DNA of 18,778 nt from a virus (Duplodnaviria; Heunggongvirae; Uroviricota; Caudoviricetes): IMG/VR virus record IMGVR_UViG_3300047274_000273, positions 119,217-137,994 of that record. One strand, written 5' to 3'. Positions within the stretch are counted from its first letter, which is position 1; the number at the start of each line of letters is the position of its first letter. The translations under genes were made by a program, and so were the position numbers. This document shows positions 10,978 through 17,408 of this stretch, one piece after another. The notes beneath the pieces are model-generated. The model did no database searches, had not been told where the DNA came from, and saw only the letters and a program-made list of their open reading frames with translations.

Positions 10978-11052
10978 TCCAGAGTAGCACAGCGGCAGTG
11001 CAGTTGACTGTTAATCAATTGGTCGGTGGTTCGATCCCACCCTCTGGAGCCA
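10978..11052 (+). tRNA. tRNA-Asn(GTT)
   Basis: Cloverleaf, CTGTTAA loop, CCA. Confidence 0.93.
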
Positions 11053-11389: not shown

Positions 11390-11489
11390 GCCTCTGTAGC
11401 TTAATTGGTAAAGACGCGAGCTTATACCTCGCCAAAGCACCGGCCAGATAAGCCGGCGTGTGCAGGTTCGAGTCCTGCCAGAGGCACCA
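11390..11489 (+). tRNA. tRNA-Ile(TAT) with an extra GAT-loop arm
   Basis: GCGAG-CTTATAC-CTCGC arm plus CCGGC-CAGATAA-GCCGG arm; 100 nt. Confidence 0.8.
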
Positions 11490-11958: not shown

Positions 11959-12024
11959 TTATAAGGAGAAATCAAAATGGGGCATTGGCAGTTGTTATTT
12001 TGGTTATCATAGGTTTAATTTGGA

Positions 12025-12053
12025 TTGACAAACATCTAAAGTGAAGTTACAAT
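12025..12053 (+). promoter_or_regulatory. sigma70-type promoter
   Basis: TTGACA-17-TACAAT. Confidence 0.75.
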
Positions 12054-12079
12054 ACTAAAACTGAAAAAAGGAGAATGGC

Positions 12080-12100
12080 ATGAAACGTGGTAAACGTTAG
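12080..12100 (+). other. Mini-ORF MKRGKR followed by a hairpin
   Basis: AAGGAG SD 6 nt before ATG; hairpin at about 12100-12138. Confidence 0.45.
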
Positions 12101-12159
12101 TGTCGCCCTGGTACTCCGTATGGTCCAGGGTTGGCACAGTAAATCATCTAGTACGACGA

Positions 12160-12235
12160 CCCTGTGTAGCGTTAATGGTAGCGCACTTGACTCTTAATCA
12201 ATGAGGTGTGAGTTCAAATCTCACTGCAGGGACCA
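12160..12235 (+). tRNA. tRNA-Lys(CTT)
   Basis: CTCTTAA loop. Confidence 0.9.
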
Positions 12236-12238
12236 TAT

Positions 12239-12313
12239 GGGAGTATAGCTCAGCGGTAGAGCAGCGGACTTTTAATCCGTTGGTCCAGGGTTCAAATCCC
12301 TGTGCTCCTACCA
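12239..12313 (+). tRNA. tRNA-Lys(TTT)
   Basis: CTTTTAA loop. Confidence 0.95.
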
Positions 12314-12392
12314 TATAAAAACACACCGGTCTACCGCCACCGAGAGGTAGTTAAAGACAATGACAAGCAACAGCCAGTGTGTTTCTATATGG
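12311..12392 (+). repeat. Stem-closed RNA cassette, copy A
   Basis: CCATATAAAAACACAC ... GTGTGTTTCTATATGG inverted repeat. Confidence 0.75.
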
Positions 12393-12404
12393 TAAAGAAT
12401 TCAA

Positions 12405-13290
12405 GGGCAGCTTAATGTCCTGTAGGCGGTTCGCCGCTTACGAAGAATAACTCCTGTGAGGGAGCCAACAGATGTATGCCTACATAAGTCTGCCAGCGAT
12501 GGTTCATTTAAGCAAGCCTGCTCACTCCGGTGACGGAGCGTTCACTGATAAGACCGGTGGATGTAACAGCAAAGCTGATGTAGTGGAAAGAATGTTTGCT
12601 CAAGCGCCGCAAGGTAACGCAAGCAGATAGAGAGTAACAGGTGGTGCTGACCTCACTACAAAACCAATCAGTTAGTTGGTATGAGAAAGGGTAGTGTTCG
12701 GTTCCGAAGAGTCGCGTCTAAGGGGTCGAGCGCAGTTTGAGTGGTTAGTGGTAACGTAGCAATACGTTGACGCCGATCGCGAAGAACGACTGAGTAGCTC
12801 GCGAGGCAAAAGGTACGTGGTGTGTTGTATTCAGTAGAGCAAAACTTTATTGAGCAACAGAGGCAGCACATCGCAGTAGGTTCAGTTATAGCACAATTGG
12901 TAGTGCATCTCCCCTGTTAAGGAGACGGCTGAAGGTTCAACTCCTTCTAACGTTCAAAAAAGCAAAGACTGCCTCGGTCATATGTGAAAAGCATCTAATA
13001 CTTAGGGCGCAAGCCAACTAAGTCAGACGTAGCTCGCAAGGTGAAATCTGTTTATGCTGGAAGTTTCGTAAGGTGTTAGCGCACCTGAATAGCTCGCAAG
13101 GTTAACGGAATAGATAGCGTAGAATAGCATATGACGACAAGACTACTGCCTGTCTTTAAAAACGGCGATGCTGATAGTGGACATAGGTACCGCAAGGGCT
13201 TATGTGGATGTCTAGAGAAGCTGTGCTCGCAAGGTGCAGTATAATGCTAGAGGCACTATTAGCTAACGTGTAATCTCAGCGTTAGCACCA
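12405..13290 (+). ncRNA. GOLLD-like giant structured ncRNA (boundaries approximate)
   Basis: About 890 nt with no credible CDS inside a phage tRNA array; many GCAA/GNRA-capped hairpins (GCTCGCAAGGT three times); long-range GCAGTAG/CTACTGC pairing; 3' hairpin GCTAACG-TGTAATCTCAG-CGTTAGC resembling recalled GOLLD 3' ends. Confidence 0.75.
12885..12951 (+). other. tRNA-Asn-like element embedded in the GOLLD-like RNA
   Basis: D-arm GCAC-AATTGGTA-GTGC, TCTCC-CCTGTTAA-GGAGA arm, GAAGG-TTCAACT-CCTTC T-arm; 4-bp acceptor; no CCA. Confidence 0.75.
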
Positions 13291-13397
13291 TATAAAAACA
13301 CATTCAAGGCAAAGTACAAGCCTAGCAGAAGGTGCAGCCACGCCCGGCAACGAGCGTCGGTGGACGGTGCTACTCCGTCGAGTGTGTTTCTATATGG
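13288..13397 (+). repeat. Stem-closed RNA cassette, copy B
   Basis: CCATATAAAAACACATTC ... GAGTGTGTTTCTATATGG. Confidence 0.75.
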
Positions 13398-13470
13398 TAA
13401 TGTAGCATAATGGTAGTGCAACACCTTCATACGGTGCGCTGTGAAAGTTCGACTCTTTCCATTACCACCA
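13396..13470 (+). tRNA. tRNA(CAT), elongator Met or Ile2
   Basis: TTCATAC loop; G1-C72 paired; identity cannot be resolved by eye. Confidence 0.85.
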
Positions 13471-13475
13471 TATTT

Positions 13476-13550
13476 GGGGGCAGCAGAGGGCTGCGGTGGA
13501 TCCTTGCAAGATTCATGACTACAAGGGTTCGATACCCTGGGCCTCCACCA
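13476..13550 (+). tRNA. Atypical tRNA-Ala(TGC) with a miniature D-arm
   Basis: G3.U70, A73, CTTGCAA loop; D region GCAG-AGGG-CTGC. Confidence 0.65.
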
Positions 13551-13556
13551 ATTTTC

Positions 13557-13630
13557 GCCCTTTTAGTTTAATGGTAGAGCACCGGTTTTGTAATCCGGGA
13601 ATGGTGGTTCGATTCCATCAAGGGGCACCA
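13557..13630 (+). tRNA. tRNA-Thr(TGT)
   Basis: TTTGTAA loop; U.U at 31-39. Confidence 0.88.
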
Positions 13631-13633
13631 AGT

Positions 13634-13852
13634 TTTGTTGTAGTGTCAGCAAGAGAAAGTCACGCTATAAAGGTTTCTTCGAAGGACTGATATAGTAGAA
13701 GGTGGCGGGTTCGATGCCCGACGGATCGGAAGATCCGGGTACATGGTGGCGTACTATCTGGTCCGGTATCCCAAGTAACGTACCGAGTCCTGCCCGGGCT
13801 AGTTAATCCAGGTGAATGGTGCCAATAACGATGGTGGCACATCTACAACAAA
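13634..13852 (+). ncRNA. Unidentified structured ncRNA candidate
   Basis: 10-bp closing stem TTTGTTGTAG/CTACAACAAA and several internal hairpins. Confidence 0.6.
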
Positions 13853-14513: not shown

Positions 14514-14587
14514 AGTTCCTTAGTTCAATGGTAGAACGATACTTTGACATGGTATAGACACAAGTTCAATTCTTGTAGGAACTACCA
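14514..14587 (+). tRNA. tRNA-Val(GAC)
   Basis: TTGACAT loop. Confidence 0.88.
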
Positions 14588-14678
14588 TATGTAAACACAT
14601 TAGTGAAAGAACGGTCGTAGACCTTAGGGCTTAGCCTGCGGCATTGTCCTTCGACGGTGGCTAGTGTGTTTGCATATG
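14586..14678 (+). repeat. Stem-closed RNA cassette, copy C
   Basis: CATATGTAAACACATTAGT ... GCTAGTGTGTTTGCATATG, 19-bp stem. Confidence 0.7.
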
Positions 14679-15138: not shown

Positions 15139-15219
15139 GCCCCGGTGGTGGAATTGGTAGACACGCTGGTCTTAGAAGCCAGTCTTCGGGTACGAGTTCG
15201 AGTCTCGTCTGGGGCACCA
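15139..15219 (+). tRNA. tRNA-Leu(TAG)
   Basis: CTTAGAA loop; 9-nt variable region. Confidence 0.92.
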
Positions 15220-15225
15220 TTAAAA

Positions 15226-15374
15226 AATAACATTGACAGGTATCGTCTATGGACGCATAGACTTACGAAGAATAGGGCCATCTTACTCTTCTGAAAAAAC
15301 TGCGGGCAATGGCTTATGAGGAGAATCGAACTCCACTCAGAAATTCGCTCCATCCCATAGGGTGCAATGTTATT
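15226..15374 (+). ncRNA. Unidentified structured ncRNA candidate
   Basis: AATAACATTG/CAATGTTATT closing stem; GTCTATG-GACG-CATAGAC hairpin. Confidence 0.5.
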
Positions 15375-15392
15375 CTTTAATGGTAAGTTTTT

Positions 15393-16609: not shown

Positions 16610-16855
16610 ATGGCTAGGATTTCAGCGGAAGAAGCGGCAGCAGCGATAGGTAACAGATTTGACTTGGTGTTAGTAGCCAGTCAACGAGCGAGAGAGATTA
16701 AGAATGGGTCTAGGCCTAGGATAGCTGATCAGAACTCTACACCCTGTGTAGCAGCTCTTAAAGAAATCGAAGAAGGCAAGTATACCTACAACGACTATTT
16801 GGTCACAGTACAACGAAAGAAAAAAGGACACAGAGATGAATATTTCCCTACGTAA
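16610..16855 (+). CDS. rpoZ: RNA polymerase omega subunit
   Basis: AAGGAAG SD before ATG 16610; MARIS...GNRFDLVLVASQRAREI..G..P...ALKEIEEG matches the omega signature. Confidence 0.9.
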   Translation: MARISAEEAAAAIGNRFDLVLVASQRAREIKNGSRPRIADQNSTPCVAALKEIEEGKYTYNDYLVTVQRKKKGHRDEYFPT

Positions 16856-17408
16856 AGCAAACGCAATCCAAAACAACATCAATGACGCTATCCGTAGTGT
16901 CAAGATCGAATCTAGCATCGAACTCAACGAGTTTCAGGATGTGGCTGTAGAGCTGCAAAAGGCCAACGATCTGGTCATCGCCAACGATGCCCGTAGGCAG
17001 AAACTGTTGTTGGCTCTGTACAACATCAGAGGCCTAGTCGGCACAGCCAATGCCAGCTGCGGTATCGATCTTAGCTTGGCCAAGGCTGCGTTTATCGACA
17101 AGCGTATCGCTCAGCTCGAAGAATTGGCATCGTTAAAGGCAGTCACATCATTAGATGTGATCAAAGGTAAACTTGAGAAAATCAAAAGCCTTAAAGACGA
17201 AGCTCGTAGCCGTATCTATGGCTACGGTGACACCGTGAGCACCACAGTGGTCAGCCAAAGTCAGATCGATCAGGCCAAGGCAGAGATTCTAAATCTCAAG
17301 AAGCAGAAGCAAAAGCTCAACGACGAAGTGCTTGAGCTTAACATCAAAACTGAGATTCCTCTCAGCGATGAAACAGTAGCTCTTCTACAAGCAGAAGGCC
17401 TACTGTAA
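16836..17408 (+). CDS. Hypothetical coiled-coil protein
   Basis: 190-aa helical ORF overlapping the end of rpoZ. Confidence 0.8.
   Translation: MNISLRKANAIQNNINDAIRSVKIESSIELNEFQDVAVELQKANDLVIANDARRQKLLLALYNIRGLVGTANASCGIDLSLAKAAFIDKRIAQLEELASLKAVTSLDVIKGKLEKIKSLKDEARSRIYGYGDTVSTTVVSQSQIDQAKAEILNLKKQKQKLNDEVLELNIKTEIPLSDETVALLQAEGLL

What the first reader, a model, noticed from the sequence alone, without database searches (positions are those of the whole stretch)
12405..13290. GOLLD-like giant RNA with an embedded, distorted tRNA-Asn module and a CCA-like 3' end
Seen: about 890 nt of dense hairpins with GNRA loops. At 12885-12951 there are complete D, anticodon and T arms, but the anticodon loop has 8 nt (CCTGTTAA), the acceptor has only 4 bp and there is no CCA. 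The RNA's last hairpin is followed by ACCA (13287-90). A normal tRNA-Asn exists at 10978. Established: GOLLD RNAs occur near phage tRNA genes, can carry tRNA-like inserts and form large RNA-only oligomers; their function is unknown. Inference: the insert is unlikely to decode and may be a displayed tRNA mimic, such as a decoy for anticodon nucleases or a processing signal.
Basis: partly seen in the sequence, partly recalled or inferred. Interest (0 to 1): 0.7.

Follow-up and report, generated by a model that had tools for sequence, protein, structure and literature searches.

The report
GOLLD phage RNA with tethered tRNA mimic
This 0.9-kb gene-free stretch encodes an ordinary member of the known GOLLD family of giant cage-forming phage RNAs; its built-in tRNA look-alike has a conserved stub acceptor arm and so cannot become a working tRNA, while the odd 8-base loop and the 'CCA end' are private quirks of this copy.

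Summary
Window 12395-13290 (+) is a full-length GOLLD RNA. Rfam RF02032 scores 216 bits against a cut-off of 150, and the 5' domain is homologous to that of more than 30 relatives. It lies in the tRNA array of an uncultured large phage.

The linker holds a cloverleaf at 12885-12951 with a 4-bp acceptor, an 8-nt anticodon loop and no CCA. tRNAs and pseudo-tRNAs in GOLLD linkers are already published, and this scan has met them in at least 47 other genomes.

What I add:
- In 66 distinct relatives the module sits at the same place.
- All four helices covary, and the acceptor is conserved at 4 bp, not 7.
- The tRNA elbow bases and the loop U33-N-U-U-A-A are kept, while position 34 toggles G/U/C on otherwise identical backbones.

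The module is therefore a selected, tethered, non-decoding tRNA mimic, not a decayed or releasable tRNA.

- The 8-nt loop is one extra C in a C run; the three nearest relatives have the normal 7-nt CUGUUAA.
- The ACCA is ACUA in relatives and is paired within a conserved spacer hairpin.

The function stays unknown. A bait or decoy role for proteins that read Asn/Lys-type anticodon loops is plausible but untested.

The parts
12025..12053 (+). Nearest upstream sigma-70-type promoter (TTGACA-17-TACAAT). It is the likely start of the transcript that carries tRNA-Lys x2, GOLLD and the following tRNAs.
   Evidence: 11 of 12 consensus matches. No promoter lies directly before GOLLD in the window, whereas many relatives have one there. 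Co-transcription is an inference.
12309..12394 (+). Spacer hairpin 1. It begins in the ACCA end of tRNA-Lys(TTT) and ends one base before the GOLLD 5' end.
   Evidence: Inverted repeat I2, 21 nt, 90% complementary. The fold gives -28.6 kcal/mol, z -5.7.
12395..12816 (+). GOLLD 5' domain (variable half, not covered by the Rfam model).
   Evidence: 78-84% identity to the segment upstream of the GOLLD 3' domain in more than 25 relatives. RNAalifold on 30 sequences predicts 98 pairs, 61 of them with compensatory changes. Predicted promoters in relatives end just before the position equivalent to 12395.
12817..13286 (+). GOLLD conserved 3' domain (P14 to P27), including the linker and the terminal hairpin.
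   Evidence: Rfam RF02032 matches 12817-13282 at 216.2 bits, full model. The terminal hairpin extends to 13286.
12875..12965 (+). Inter-domain linker: conserved GUAGGUU, the tRNA-like module, then an A-rich tail ending in GCAA.
   Evidence: Alignment A1 of 66 distinct relatives. In solved GOLLD cages the linker lies in the cage interior (PMC12286853).
12885..12951 (+). tRNA-like module. Acceptor stub 12885-12888/12948-12951; D arm 12891-12906; anticodon arm 12908-12925 (loop 12913-12920, 'anticodon' GTT 12916-12918); variable loop 12926-12930; T arm 12931-12947.
   Evidence: Rfam tRNA 48.2 bits, model positions 4-67. Covariation in all four helices. No extension of the acceptor.
12911..12914 (+). 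Run of four C. It holds the one extra C that makes the anticodon loop 8 nt.
   Evidence: Alignment A3: L297, L330 and L261 have CCC here and are otherwise nearly identical.
13262..13286 (+). Terminal GOLLD hairpin P27 (8 bp in this clade) with the conserved loop GUAAUCUCA (L27).
   Evidence: The stem covaries among relatives (GCUAACG/CGUUAGC, GUUAAAG/CUUUAAC, GUUAAGA/UCUUAAC). L27 is a tertiary hub in the solved structure.
13287..13398 (+). Spacer hairpin 2.
   Evidence: The fold gives -58.7 kcal/mol, z -6.2 for 13262-13402. Bases 13287-13302 are identical to 12310-12325. Equivalent hairpins follow GOLLD in most relatives.

Best explanation
Window 12395-13290 (+) is a normal, full-length GOLLD RNA gene of an uncultured large aquatic phage.

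Transcription and processing: it has no promoter or terminator of its own. It is probably transcribed with the neighbouring tRNAs from the promoter at 12025-12053 and cut out at the conserved spacer hairpins on both sides (inferred).

The module: as in at least 65 relatives, the linker between its two domains folds into an L-shaped tRNA look-alike whose acceptor arm is only 4 bp, with no discriminator or CCA. It therefore cannot be excised by RNase P or RNase Z, receive CCA or be aminoacylated. It stays covalently tethered, one per chain. By analogy with the solved GOLLD cages, it lies inside the 12- to 14-chain RNA cage.

What selection keeps: the four helices, the elbow bases (U8, A14, G18, G19, A21, T54, psi55, C56, A58) and the loop U33-N34-U35-U36-A37-A38. 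Position 34 is free to toggle between Asn- and Lys-type anticodons. The module is thus kept to be recognised as a tRNA anticodon arm and elbow, not to decode.

My committed guess: it is a bait inside or at the mouth of the cage, either a pseudo-substrate or a docking handle, for a protein that reads Asn/Lys-type anticodon loops. A host anticodon nuclease is the leading candidate.

Private features of this copy: the 8-nt loop is a single-C insertion in a C run. The ACCA is the first strand of the downstream spacer hairpin.

Odds by step:
- GOLLD identity: about 0.97.
- Tethered and non-decoding: about 0.85.
- Selected as a tRNA mimic: about 0.8.
- Bait for a tRNA-binding protein: about 0.4.
- Specifically an anticodon-nuclease decoy: about 0.2.
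For: Shown here:
- Rfam GOLLD at 216 bits over the full model, and tRNA at 48 bits over positions 4-67.
- The 5' domain is homologous and covarying, with 61 of 98 pairs showing compensatory changes.
- 66 distinct relatives carry the module at the same linker site.
- Helix pairing: acceptor stub 97% paired, D stem 99.6%, anticodon stem 99.1%, T stem 96%. Compensatory changes occur in 17 of the 18 pairs of these four helices. The covariation score, computed over all 21 scored pairs including the three trial pairs 1-3, is 0.606 against 0.186 in shuffles (0 of 500) and at most 0.123 when the partners are slid.
- Acceptor pairs 1-3 are only 65% paired, with no two-sided change. Only 9 of 66 modules can reach 7 bp, fewer than with shuffled partners (12.5 +/- 2.1). 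37 of 66 cannot extend at all, the window included.
- Elbow and T-loop bases are invariant or at least 90% conserved.
- Loops: 61 of 66 have 7 nt. U33 is 98%, U35 86%, U36 88%, A37 94% and A38 96% conserved, while position 34 is G 51%, U 35%, C 12%.
- Position 34 differs in 7 of 32 near-identical pairs. L023 and L270 differ at nothing else.
- The nearest relatives lack the extra C.
- ACCA is ACUA in relatives and is paired in the hairpin.

From the literature:
- The linker lies in the cage interior, and tRNAs are sometimes present in GOLLD linkers (PMC12286853).
- In M. aubagnense, no separate transcript of the GOLLD pseudo-tRNA was seen on northern blots (PMC6582537).
- The PARIS nuclease AriB targets tRNA-Lys(UUU), Thr(UGU) and Asn(GUU), and phage tRNAs counter it (PMC12409363).

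Context:
- Rnl1-like ligase, PNK-like kinase and phosphoesterase genes lie within 5 kb of GOLLD in 10 to 17 of 72 related loci.
Against: - No expression or end-mapping data could be obtained, so tethering is inferred from structure and from one published northern blot in a distant GOLLD.
- The cage-interior location is extrapolated from two solved GOLLDs that lack the module.
- A decoy enclosed in a cage would be hard for a nuclease to reach.
- Only 2 of 66 modules carry the UAAUCA site that AriB cuts (sequences, compared).
- A few clade members have lost the module: L009, and remnants in L291 and L245. It is therefore dispensable for the RNA.
- The RNA-repair genes may simply travel with tRNA arrays, and none was found in the held 138 kb of this phage (the contig is 39% complete).
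- The thermodynamic fold of the linker alone is unremarkable (z -0.55) and does not include the 4-bp stub.
Confidence: 0.55

Rival explanations
1. Stored, releasable tRNA. The insert is a real tRNA-Asn precursor kept inactive inside the GOLLD cage and released by RNase P and RNase Z when the cage opens. This is the 'inhibited storage' idea of the 2026 review.
For: The review proposes this for the Mycolicibacterium GOLLD tRNA-Phe (PMC12990946). One distant GOLLD here (L346) has a linker tRNA with a full 7-bp acceptor. ARAGORN calls four relatives' modules as tRNAs when it allows mismatches and G-U pairs.
Against: The acceptor is conserved at 4 bp. Pairs 1-3 show no covariation and are less complementary than shuffled partners. 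There is no discriminator or CCA. Position 34 toggles on identical backbones, which would switch the amino-acid identity. About one module in six has a loop incompatible with decoding: 8-9 nt, non-U33 or pyrimidine-37. A normal tRNA-Asn already exists at 10978.
Confidence: 0.05
2. Decaying relic. A tRNA gene once captured in the linker is now drifting without function, and the 8-nt loop is part of that decay.
For: This copy has a loop insertion. 5 of 66 modules have 8-9-nt loops. A few relatives keep only fragments (L291, L245) or nothing (L009).
Against: 93% of the cells in the 21 scored pairs (18 in the four helices plus the three trial pairs 1-3) remain paired across 66 diverged sequences. 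There are 297 doubly changed cells against 78 in shuffles. Tertiary-core bases are at least 90% conserved. Neutral decay would not keep compensatory changes in every helix.
Confidence: 0.08
3. Purely architectural element. The compact cloverleaf only sets the length and rigidity of the linker, or makes contacts between chains inside the cage. One example is pairing through the self-complementary UUAA of loop positions 35-38. No protein partner is involved.
For: The linker joins two separately folding domains. The stoichiometry of GOLLD cages depends on peripheral elements (PMC12990946). UUAA at positions 35-38 is palindromic and present in most loops.
Against: Other GOLLD clades manage with unstructured AU-rich linkers of 27-107 nt. 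Conservation of U33 and of the whole tRNA tertiary core goes beyond what a spacer needs. No covarying partner for loop position 34 was found anywhere in the RNA.
Confidence: 0.22
4. Processing punctuation. The tRNA-like fold recruits RNase P or RNase Z to split GOLLD into separate 5' and 3' RNAs, as tRNA-like elements do in MALAT1/mascRNA or in mitochondrial transcripts.
For: The module lies exactly between two domains that fold independently. The 3' domain alone can oligomerise (PMC12990946).
Against: The 9-bp acceptor/T stack is short of the 12 bp these enzymes measure (established knowledge, recalled from memory). There is no RCCA. Solved cages use the intact chain. The published northern blot detects a large GOLLD and no pseudo-tRNA product.
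Confidence: 0.07

Closest known systems
GOLLD RNA (Rfam RF02032). Solved examples are env-38 (14-mer, PDB 9MEE) and Streptococcus agalactiae (12-mer, 9L0R).
   Same: The full conserved 3' domain, including the L27 loop GUAAUCUCA. A variable structured 5' domain of about 420 nt. A variable linker between the domains. A location in a phage tRNA array.
   Different: This clade has a P27 stem extended to 7-8 bp and a conserved flanking spacer hairpin. It carries a structured tRNA-like module where env-38 has a disordered linker.
GOLLD RNAs with an embedded tRNA or pseudo-tRNA: Mycolicibacterium tRNA-Phe in J13/15, and the M. aubagnense pseudo-tRNA.
   Same: A tRNA-shaped insert in the same linker. 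In M. aubagnense no separate transcript of the insert was detected (PMC12990946; PMC6582537; PMC12286853).
   Different: Here the insert is shown by covariation to be a conserved form with a 4-bp acceptor and a free position 34. I found no paper in the searchable library that describes this. Morgado 2020 and Weinberg 2009 could not be read.
tRNA-like modules of bacterial Y RNAs (YrlA) and other tethered tRNA mimics such as mascRNA and viral TLSs. Recalled from memory, not tested.
   Same: D/T-arm elbow mimicry within a larger non-coding RNA, without decoding.
   Different: The window gives no Rfam match to such families. No Ro60/TROVE gene was found in the held contig. Here the anticodon arm is retained too.
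Phage-encoded tRNAs that neutralise anticodon nucleases: T5 tRNA-Lys, tRNA-Thr and tRNA-Asn against PARIS AriB.
   Same: The same set of anticodons dominates the modules: GUU about 50%, UUU/CUU about 25%, UGU about 5% (PMC12409363). RNA-repair genes lie nearby in relatives.
   Different: Those are free, chargeable tRNAs that replace cleaved host tRNAs. The module cannot be charged. Only 2 of 66 modules carry the AriB cleavage motif UAAUCA.

Membership tests
GOLLD RNA (RF02032) | Match to the Rfam covariance model above the gathering score, over the whole conserved 3' domain. | tested here: met
   216.2 bits against 150, E 2.5e-60, model positions 1-416 of 416, window 12817-13282 (repeated).
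GOLLD RNA (RF02032) | A contiguous, structured but less conserved 5' domain of several hundred nt. | tested here: met
   Window 12395-12816 aligns at 78-84% identity to the same segment of more than 25 relatives. 98 consensus pairs are predicted, 61 of them with compensatory changes.
GOLLD RNA (RF02032) | A variable linker between P14 and the rest of the 3' domain, which may hold a tRNA. | tested here: met
   Linker 12875-12965 with a tRNA-like module. The property is described in PMC12286853.
GOLLD RNA (RF02032) | Encoded by phages or prophages, typically next to tRNA genes. | tested here: met
   IMG/VR virus record of 138 kb. ARAGORN tRNAs around it.
GOLLD RNA (RF02032) | Expressed as one RNA of about 800-900 nt that self-assembles into a 10- to 14-chain cage. 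| not testable with these tools
No RNA 3D or assembly tool is available.
Canonical tRNA (RF00005) | Cloverleaf with D, anticodon and T arms and the conserved elbow bases. | tested here: met
   48.2 bits against 29. Covariation in the three arms, and G18 G19 / T54 psi55 C56 A58 are at least 90% conserved.
Canonical tRNA (RF00005) | A 7-bp acceptor stem with a discriminator and a 3' CCA, either encoded or addable. | tested here: not met
   Only model positions 4-67 match. Pairs 1-3 are 65% paired without two-sided changes. The window has 0 of 3 extension pairs, and only 9 of 66 relatives reach 7 bp, below the shuffled expectation. There is no CCA.
Canonical tRNA (RF00005) | A 7-nt anticodon loop with U33 and a purine at position 37. 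| tested here: not met
   The window loop is the 8-nt CCUGUUAA, and ARAGORN does not call it. 61 of 66 relatives do have 7-nt loops.
Canonical tRNA (RF00005) | An anticodon identity conserved among orthologues. | tested here: not met
   Position 34 is G, U or C on otherwise near-identical modules (7 of 32 close pairs).

The most novel reading that the evidence does not exclude
The tethered tRNA-shaped modules, one per chain and so 12-14 per GOLLD cage, may be the working part of the cage in this clade. They would act as baits that capture a host protein reading Asn/Lys/Thr-type anticodon loops, such as an anticodon nuclease of a defence system, and sequester it in or at the cage. Alternatively they would be cargo-loading handles that bring a tRNA-binding enzyme into the cage. 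That would give GOLLD its first concrete function, as an RNA-only counter-defence or encapsulation device.
Probability: 0.2. Interest if true: 0.8.

Novelty: new member of a known kind. Interest (0 to 1): 0.3.

Why it matters
GOLLD is a striking natural RNA, a protein-free nanocage, and it still has no known function. This copy is an ordinary family member. The two features that made it look special, the 8-nt loop and the CCA-like end, are private accidents of this sequence.

The comparative result is useful beyond this window. In a large phage clade the linker carries a tRNA mimic under purifying selection, with a 4-bp acceptor stub, an intact elbow and a U33-N-U-U-A-A loop whose wobble position is free. 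That rules out both 'stored tRNA' and 'dead pseudogene' for this clade. It also gives experimenters a defined handle to mutate, delete or use as bait when searching for GOLLD's partner.

Tried and rejected
- blastn of the region against 50,697 GenBank phage records found no match.
- Weinberg 2009 and Morgado 2020 are not held.
- The first broad pattern scan (AGTAGGTT...TAGCNCA) gave mostly chance hits.
- The genome-contig scan gave 120 loci, of which only 2 are real GOLLDs: L359, and L367 from a Gammaproteobacteria MAG. The host is therefore not resolved.
- A 7-bp acceptor using the conserved GGUU upstream was rejected. It shows no covariation and is less complementary than shuffled partners.
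- I tested an earlier scan note's idea that the 'anticodon' loop pairs back to another part of GOLLD. No column anywhere pairs with variable position 34 at 85% or more with at least 2 pair types.
- The last hairpin plus ACCA as an acceptor-minihelix mimic was rejected. The loop is the conserved L27 tertiary hub, and ACCA is ACUA in relatives.
- The spacer hairpins gave no Rfam match at E up to 5 to Y-RNA-like or any other known family.
- RNA ligase (PF09511, PF09414), CCA-adding enzyme (PF01743), TROVE/Ro60 (PF05731), AAA_33 kinase, and the L023 ligase and phosphoesterase were sought in the phage's own contig. No significant match came back, but the contig is only 39% complete, so this says nothing.
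- PHROGs and Pfam gave no family for most neighbouring ORFs of the window.

Full report
**What is there.** An Rfam scan of the window gives one GOLLD match (RF02032) at 12817-13282 on the + strand. It scores 216.2 bits against a gathering score of 150, with E 2.5e-60, and covers the whole 416-position model. The same scan gives a tRNA match inside it at 12885-12951, scoring 48.2 bits but covering only model positions 4-67. ARAGORN finds 34 tRNA genes in the window, all on the + strand between 10894 and 17980, but does not call the embedded element.

The window is the last 18.8 kb of a 138-kb IMG/VR virus record. CheckV rates that record 39% complete, so the phage is large. It holds a single GOLLD.

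- D arm at 12891-12906.
- Anticodon stem UCUCC/GGAGA with the 8-nt loop CCUGUUAA at 12913-12920.
- T arm at 12931-12947.
- Only four acceptor pairs, 12885-12888 with 12948-12951, and no CCA.
- ACCA at 13287-13290, directly after the terminal hairpin 13262-13286.
- An ordinary tRNA-Asn(GTT) at 10978-11052 with a 7-bp acceptor and GCCA.

GNRA-capped hairpins are enriched: 7 against 2.1 +/- 1.4 in shuffles.

**Extent of the RNA.** The Rfam model covers only the conserved 3' half. I collected relatives from IMG/VR with three pattern scans and filtered them with an nhmmer profile. BLAST of window 12001-13700 against them shows continuous 78-84% identity from 12393-12399 to about 13304.

RNAalifold on the 5' segment of 30 relatives predicts 98 pairs, 61 of them with compensatory changes. 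The 5' domain (12395-12816) is therefore a real, conserved, structured half of the same RNA.

Many relatives carry a consensus TTGACA-17-TACAAT promoter that ends just before the position equivalent to 12395. A few have an intrinsic terminator right after the last hairpin (L011, L313, L269). These bracket the RNA ends.

The window has neither. The nearest promoter is at 12025-12053, upstream of two tRNA-Lys genes. GOLLD is probably made as part of a tRNA precursor, but this is an inference.

**The tRNA-like module is conserved, and so is its stub acceptor.** Sixty-six distinct relatives carry a cloverleaf at exactly the same place. It follows a conserved GUAGGUU and precedes an A-rich tail ending in GCAA (alignment A1).

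Counting pairs on that alignment gives:
- Acceptor stub 97% paired, D stem 99.6%, anticodon stem 99.1%, T stem 96%.
- Two-sided (compensatory) changes in 17 of the 18 pairs of these four helices.
- A covariation score, computed over all 21 scored pairs (the 18 above plus the three trial pairs 1-3), of 0.606 against 0.186 in shuffles (0 of 500), and at most 0.123 when the 3' partners are slid.
- The stub itself covaries: GUUA/UAAC, GAUA/UAUC, UAAG/CUUA, AAUG/CAUU, UGCA/UGCA.

The three pairs that would complete a 7-bp acceptor are only 65% paired, with no two-sided change. Only 9 of 66 modules can reach 7 bp, mostly through G-U pairs. That is fewer than with shuffled partners (12.5 +/- 2.1). 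Thirty-seven modules, the window included, cannot add even one pair.

The bases that build the tRNA elbow and core (U8, A14, G18, G19, A21, T54, psi55, C56, A58) are invariant or at least 90% conserved. The module is thus an L-shaped tRNA mimic under purifying selection. Its short acceptor is a designed feature, not damage. Without a full acceptor, discriminator and CCA it cannot be a substrate for maturation or charging. This last step rests on established knowledge of those enzymes, not on a test here.

**The 'anticodon' is not kept as an identity.** Sixty-one of 66 loops have 7 nt. CUGUUAA or AUGUUAA (GUU, Asn-type) make up half. CUUUUAA (UUU) and CUCUUAA (CUU), both Lys-type, make up about a quarter. 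A few are UGU, UCU or UUA.

In a full-length alignment of 51 relatives, U33, U35, U36, A37 and A38 are 86-98% conserved, whereas position 34 is G 51%, U 35%, C 12%. Among 32 pairs of nearly identical modules, 7 differ at position 34. L023 and L270 differ at nothing else in the 71-column core.

A true tRNA would not swap between Asn and Lys anticodons on the same body. About one module in six has a loop incompatible with decoding: 8-9 nt, non-U33 or pyrimidine-37.

No column of the RNA pairs with position 34 in this clade.

**The two 'special' features are private to this copy.** The three modules nearest to the window's (L297, L330, L261) are almost identical to it. They have UCUCC-CUGUUAA-GGAGA, that is, one C fewer in the run at 12911-12914. 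The 8-nt loop is therefore a single-base insertion, or an assembly error that I could not check. It is not a family trait.

At the 3' end, relatives read GC-ACUAUUCUAAAACACAUU where the window reads GC-ACCAUAUAAAAACACAUU. In both cases these bases are the 5' strand of a long hairpin. The inner stem, AAAACACA/UGUGUUU with one A.C mismatch, is sequence-conserved. The outer stem covaries (ACCAUAUA/UAUAUGGU, ACUAUUCU/AGAAUAGU, ACUAUUAU/AUAAUAGU).

In the window the same hairpin type also follows tRNA-Lys (12309-12394) and tRNA-Val (14586-14678). It starts at their CCA and runs into the next gene. Bases 13287-13302 are identical to 12310-12325. The ACCA is thus part of a spacer cassette, probably homogenised with the copies that follow tRNAs. 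It is not a tRNA-like 3' end of GOLLD.

The hairpin before it is GOLLD's P27/L27. In the solved structure the L27 loop GUAAUCUCA is a tertiary hub (PMC12286853), not a T-loop mimic.

**What is already known.**
- The cryo-EM paper on GOLLD states that the variable linker lies in the cage interior and that phage tRNAs are sometimes present in the linker. It draws cages 'exposing the covalently linked tRNAs' (PMC12286853).
- A 2026 review cites a tRNA-Phe in the linker of Mycolicibacterium GOLLD and proposes 'inhibited storage' (PMC12990946).
- A 2019 study found a pseudo-tRNA inside the M. aubagnense GOLLD and detected no separate transcript of it (PMC6582537).
- This scan has reported GOLLDs with tRNA-like inserts in at least 47 other genomes. 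Some of those notes mention shortened acceptors and fast-changing anticodons.

The finding is therefore a new member of a known kind. I found no paper in the searchable library that describes the conserved 4-bp stub or the free position 34, but two key papers could not be read.

**How it most likely works.** The following steps are shown:
- It is a GOLLD.
- The module is conserved by selection.
- The acceptor is a 4-bp stub.
- The loop and elbow are conserved while position 34 is free.

The following steps are inferred:
- The module stays tethered.
- It sits inside the cage, one per chain.
- It is recognised as a tRNA by some factor.

The dominant loop types (Asn GUU, Lys UUU/CUU, Thr UGU) coincide with the tRNAs cut by known defence nucleases. 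One example is the PARIS effector AriB (PMC12409363). In 10-17 of 72 related loci, an Rnl1-like RNA ligase, a PNK-like kinase and a phosphoesterase lie within 5 kb of GOLLD. These observations make a bait or decoy role attractive.

Several points count against it:
- Only 2 of 66 modules carry AriB's UAAUCA site.
- An enclosed decoy is hard to reach.
- Some clade members have lost the module.
- The repair genes may merely accompany tRNA arrays.

My odds are about 0.4 for a protein-bait role of any kind, about 0.2 for an anticodon-nuclease decoy specifically and about 0.2 for a purely architectural role. Release as a working tRNA, neutral decay and RNase P/Z punctuation each get less than 0.1.

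**Verdict.** Interest is modest. This is an ordinary GOLLD, but the clade-wide anatomy of the module gives a concrete handle on GOLLD's unknown function.

Noticed in passing
window 12309-12394, 13287-13398, 14586-14678 (and 15216-15384): These are long spacer hairpins in the tRNA array. Each starts at the ACCA of the preceding RNA and ends at or inside the first bases of the next. The inner stem AAAACACA/UGUGUUU has one A.C mismatch and is sequence-conserved. The outer stem covaries in relatives, and the interiors are unrelated. The same hairpin follows GOLLD in most relatives. There is no Rfam match. They are probably endonuclease (RNase III-type) processing stems. The scan has a separate note on this (e1-5400732).
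   Followed up: partly
L123, L101, L330, L311, L250, L270, L255, L279, L258 (upstream of GOLLD); L011, L313, L269 (downstream): In many relatives GOLLD is an independent transcription unit. A consensus TTGACA-17-TACAAT promoter ends just before its 5' end, and in a few an intrinsic terminator follows P27. In the window both are replaced by spacer hairpins.
   Followed up: partly
L023:2615-6082 (- strand) and equivalent places in 10-18 of 72 related loci: An RNA-repair-type gene set lies within 5 kb of GOLLD. It comprises a T4 Rnl1-like RNA ligase (phrog_562, E 1.6e-50), a PNK-like AAA_33 kinase, a metallophosphoesterase and a DSP-like phosphatase. It was not found in the held 138 kb of this phage, which ends 5.5 kb after GOLLD.
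   Followed up: partly
L047:1062-1148, L052, L259:10345-10432: These linker modules have a loop carrying UUA, which would read the UAA stop codon. ARAGORN calls two of them 'tRNA-Stop'. With a 4-bp acceptor they are unlikely to be suppressors.
   Followed up: partly
L346 (distant GOLLD hit, 59 bits with my profile): This linker holds a tRNA with a full 7-bp acceptor and a discriminator. Both full tRNAs and stub-acceptor mimics therefore occur in GOLLD linkers.
   Followed up: no
window 16610-16852 (+) and 16836-17405 (+): The 81-aa ORF matches RNA polymerase omega/Rpb6 (Pfam PF01192, E 2.7e-14). The adjacent 190-aa ORF has no family, yet it is the commonest protein neighbour of this GOLLD clade (26 of 72 loci).
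   Followed up: partly
window 11390-11486 (+): Rfam calls a 97-nt tRNA here (57.6 bits) that ARAGORN misses.
   Followed up: no
window 13704-13720 (+) and 15319-15337 (-): Isolated T-arm-like sequences lie in gaps of the array where no tRNA is called: GGCGGGTTCGATGCCCG at 13704-13720, and an inverted GGAGTTCGATTCTCC at 15319-15337. The second lies inside the 15216-15384 hairpin. They may be tRNA remnants or further tRNA-like modules.
   Followed up: no
L263, L321, L125, L260, L306, L338, L316, L328 (about 100 nt upstream of GOLLD): In these relatives the element just before GOLLD ends with a T-arm-like CAGGTTCGAATCCTG followed by GAGTGTGCAGTTGTAT. It shares a GGCGTAGGCCACGC-type motif with the interior of the window's hairpin 13287-13398. 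This may be an undescribed small structured RNA family.
   Followed up: no
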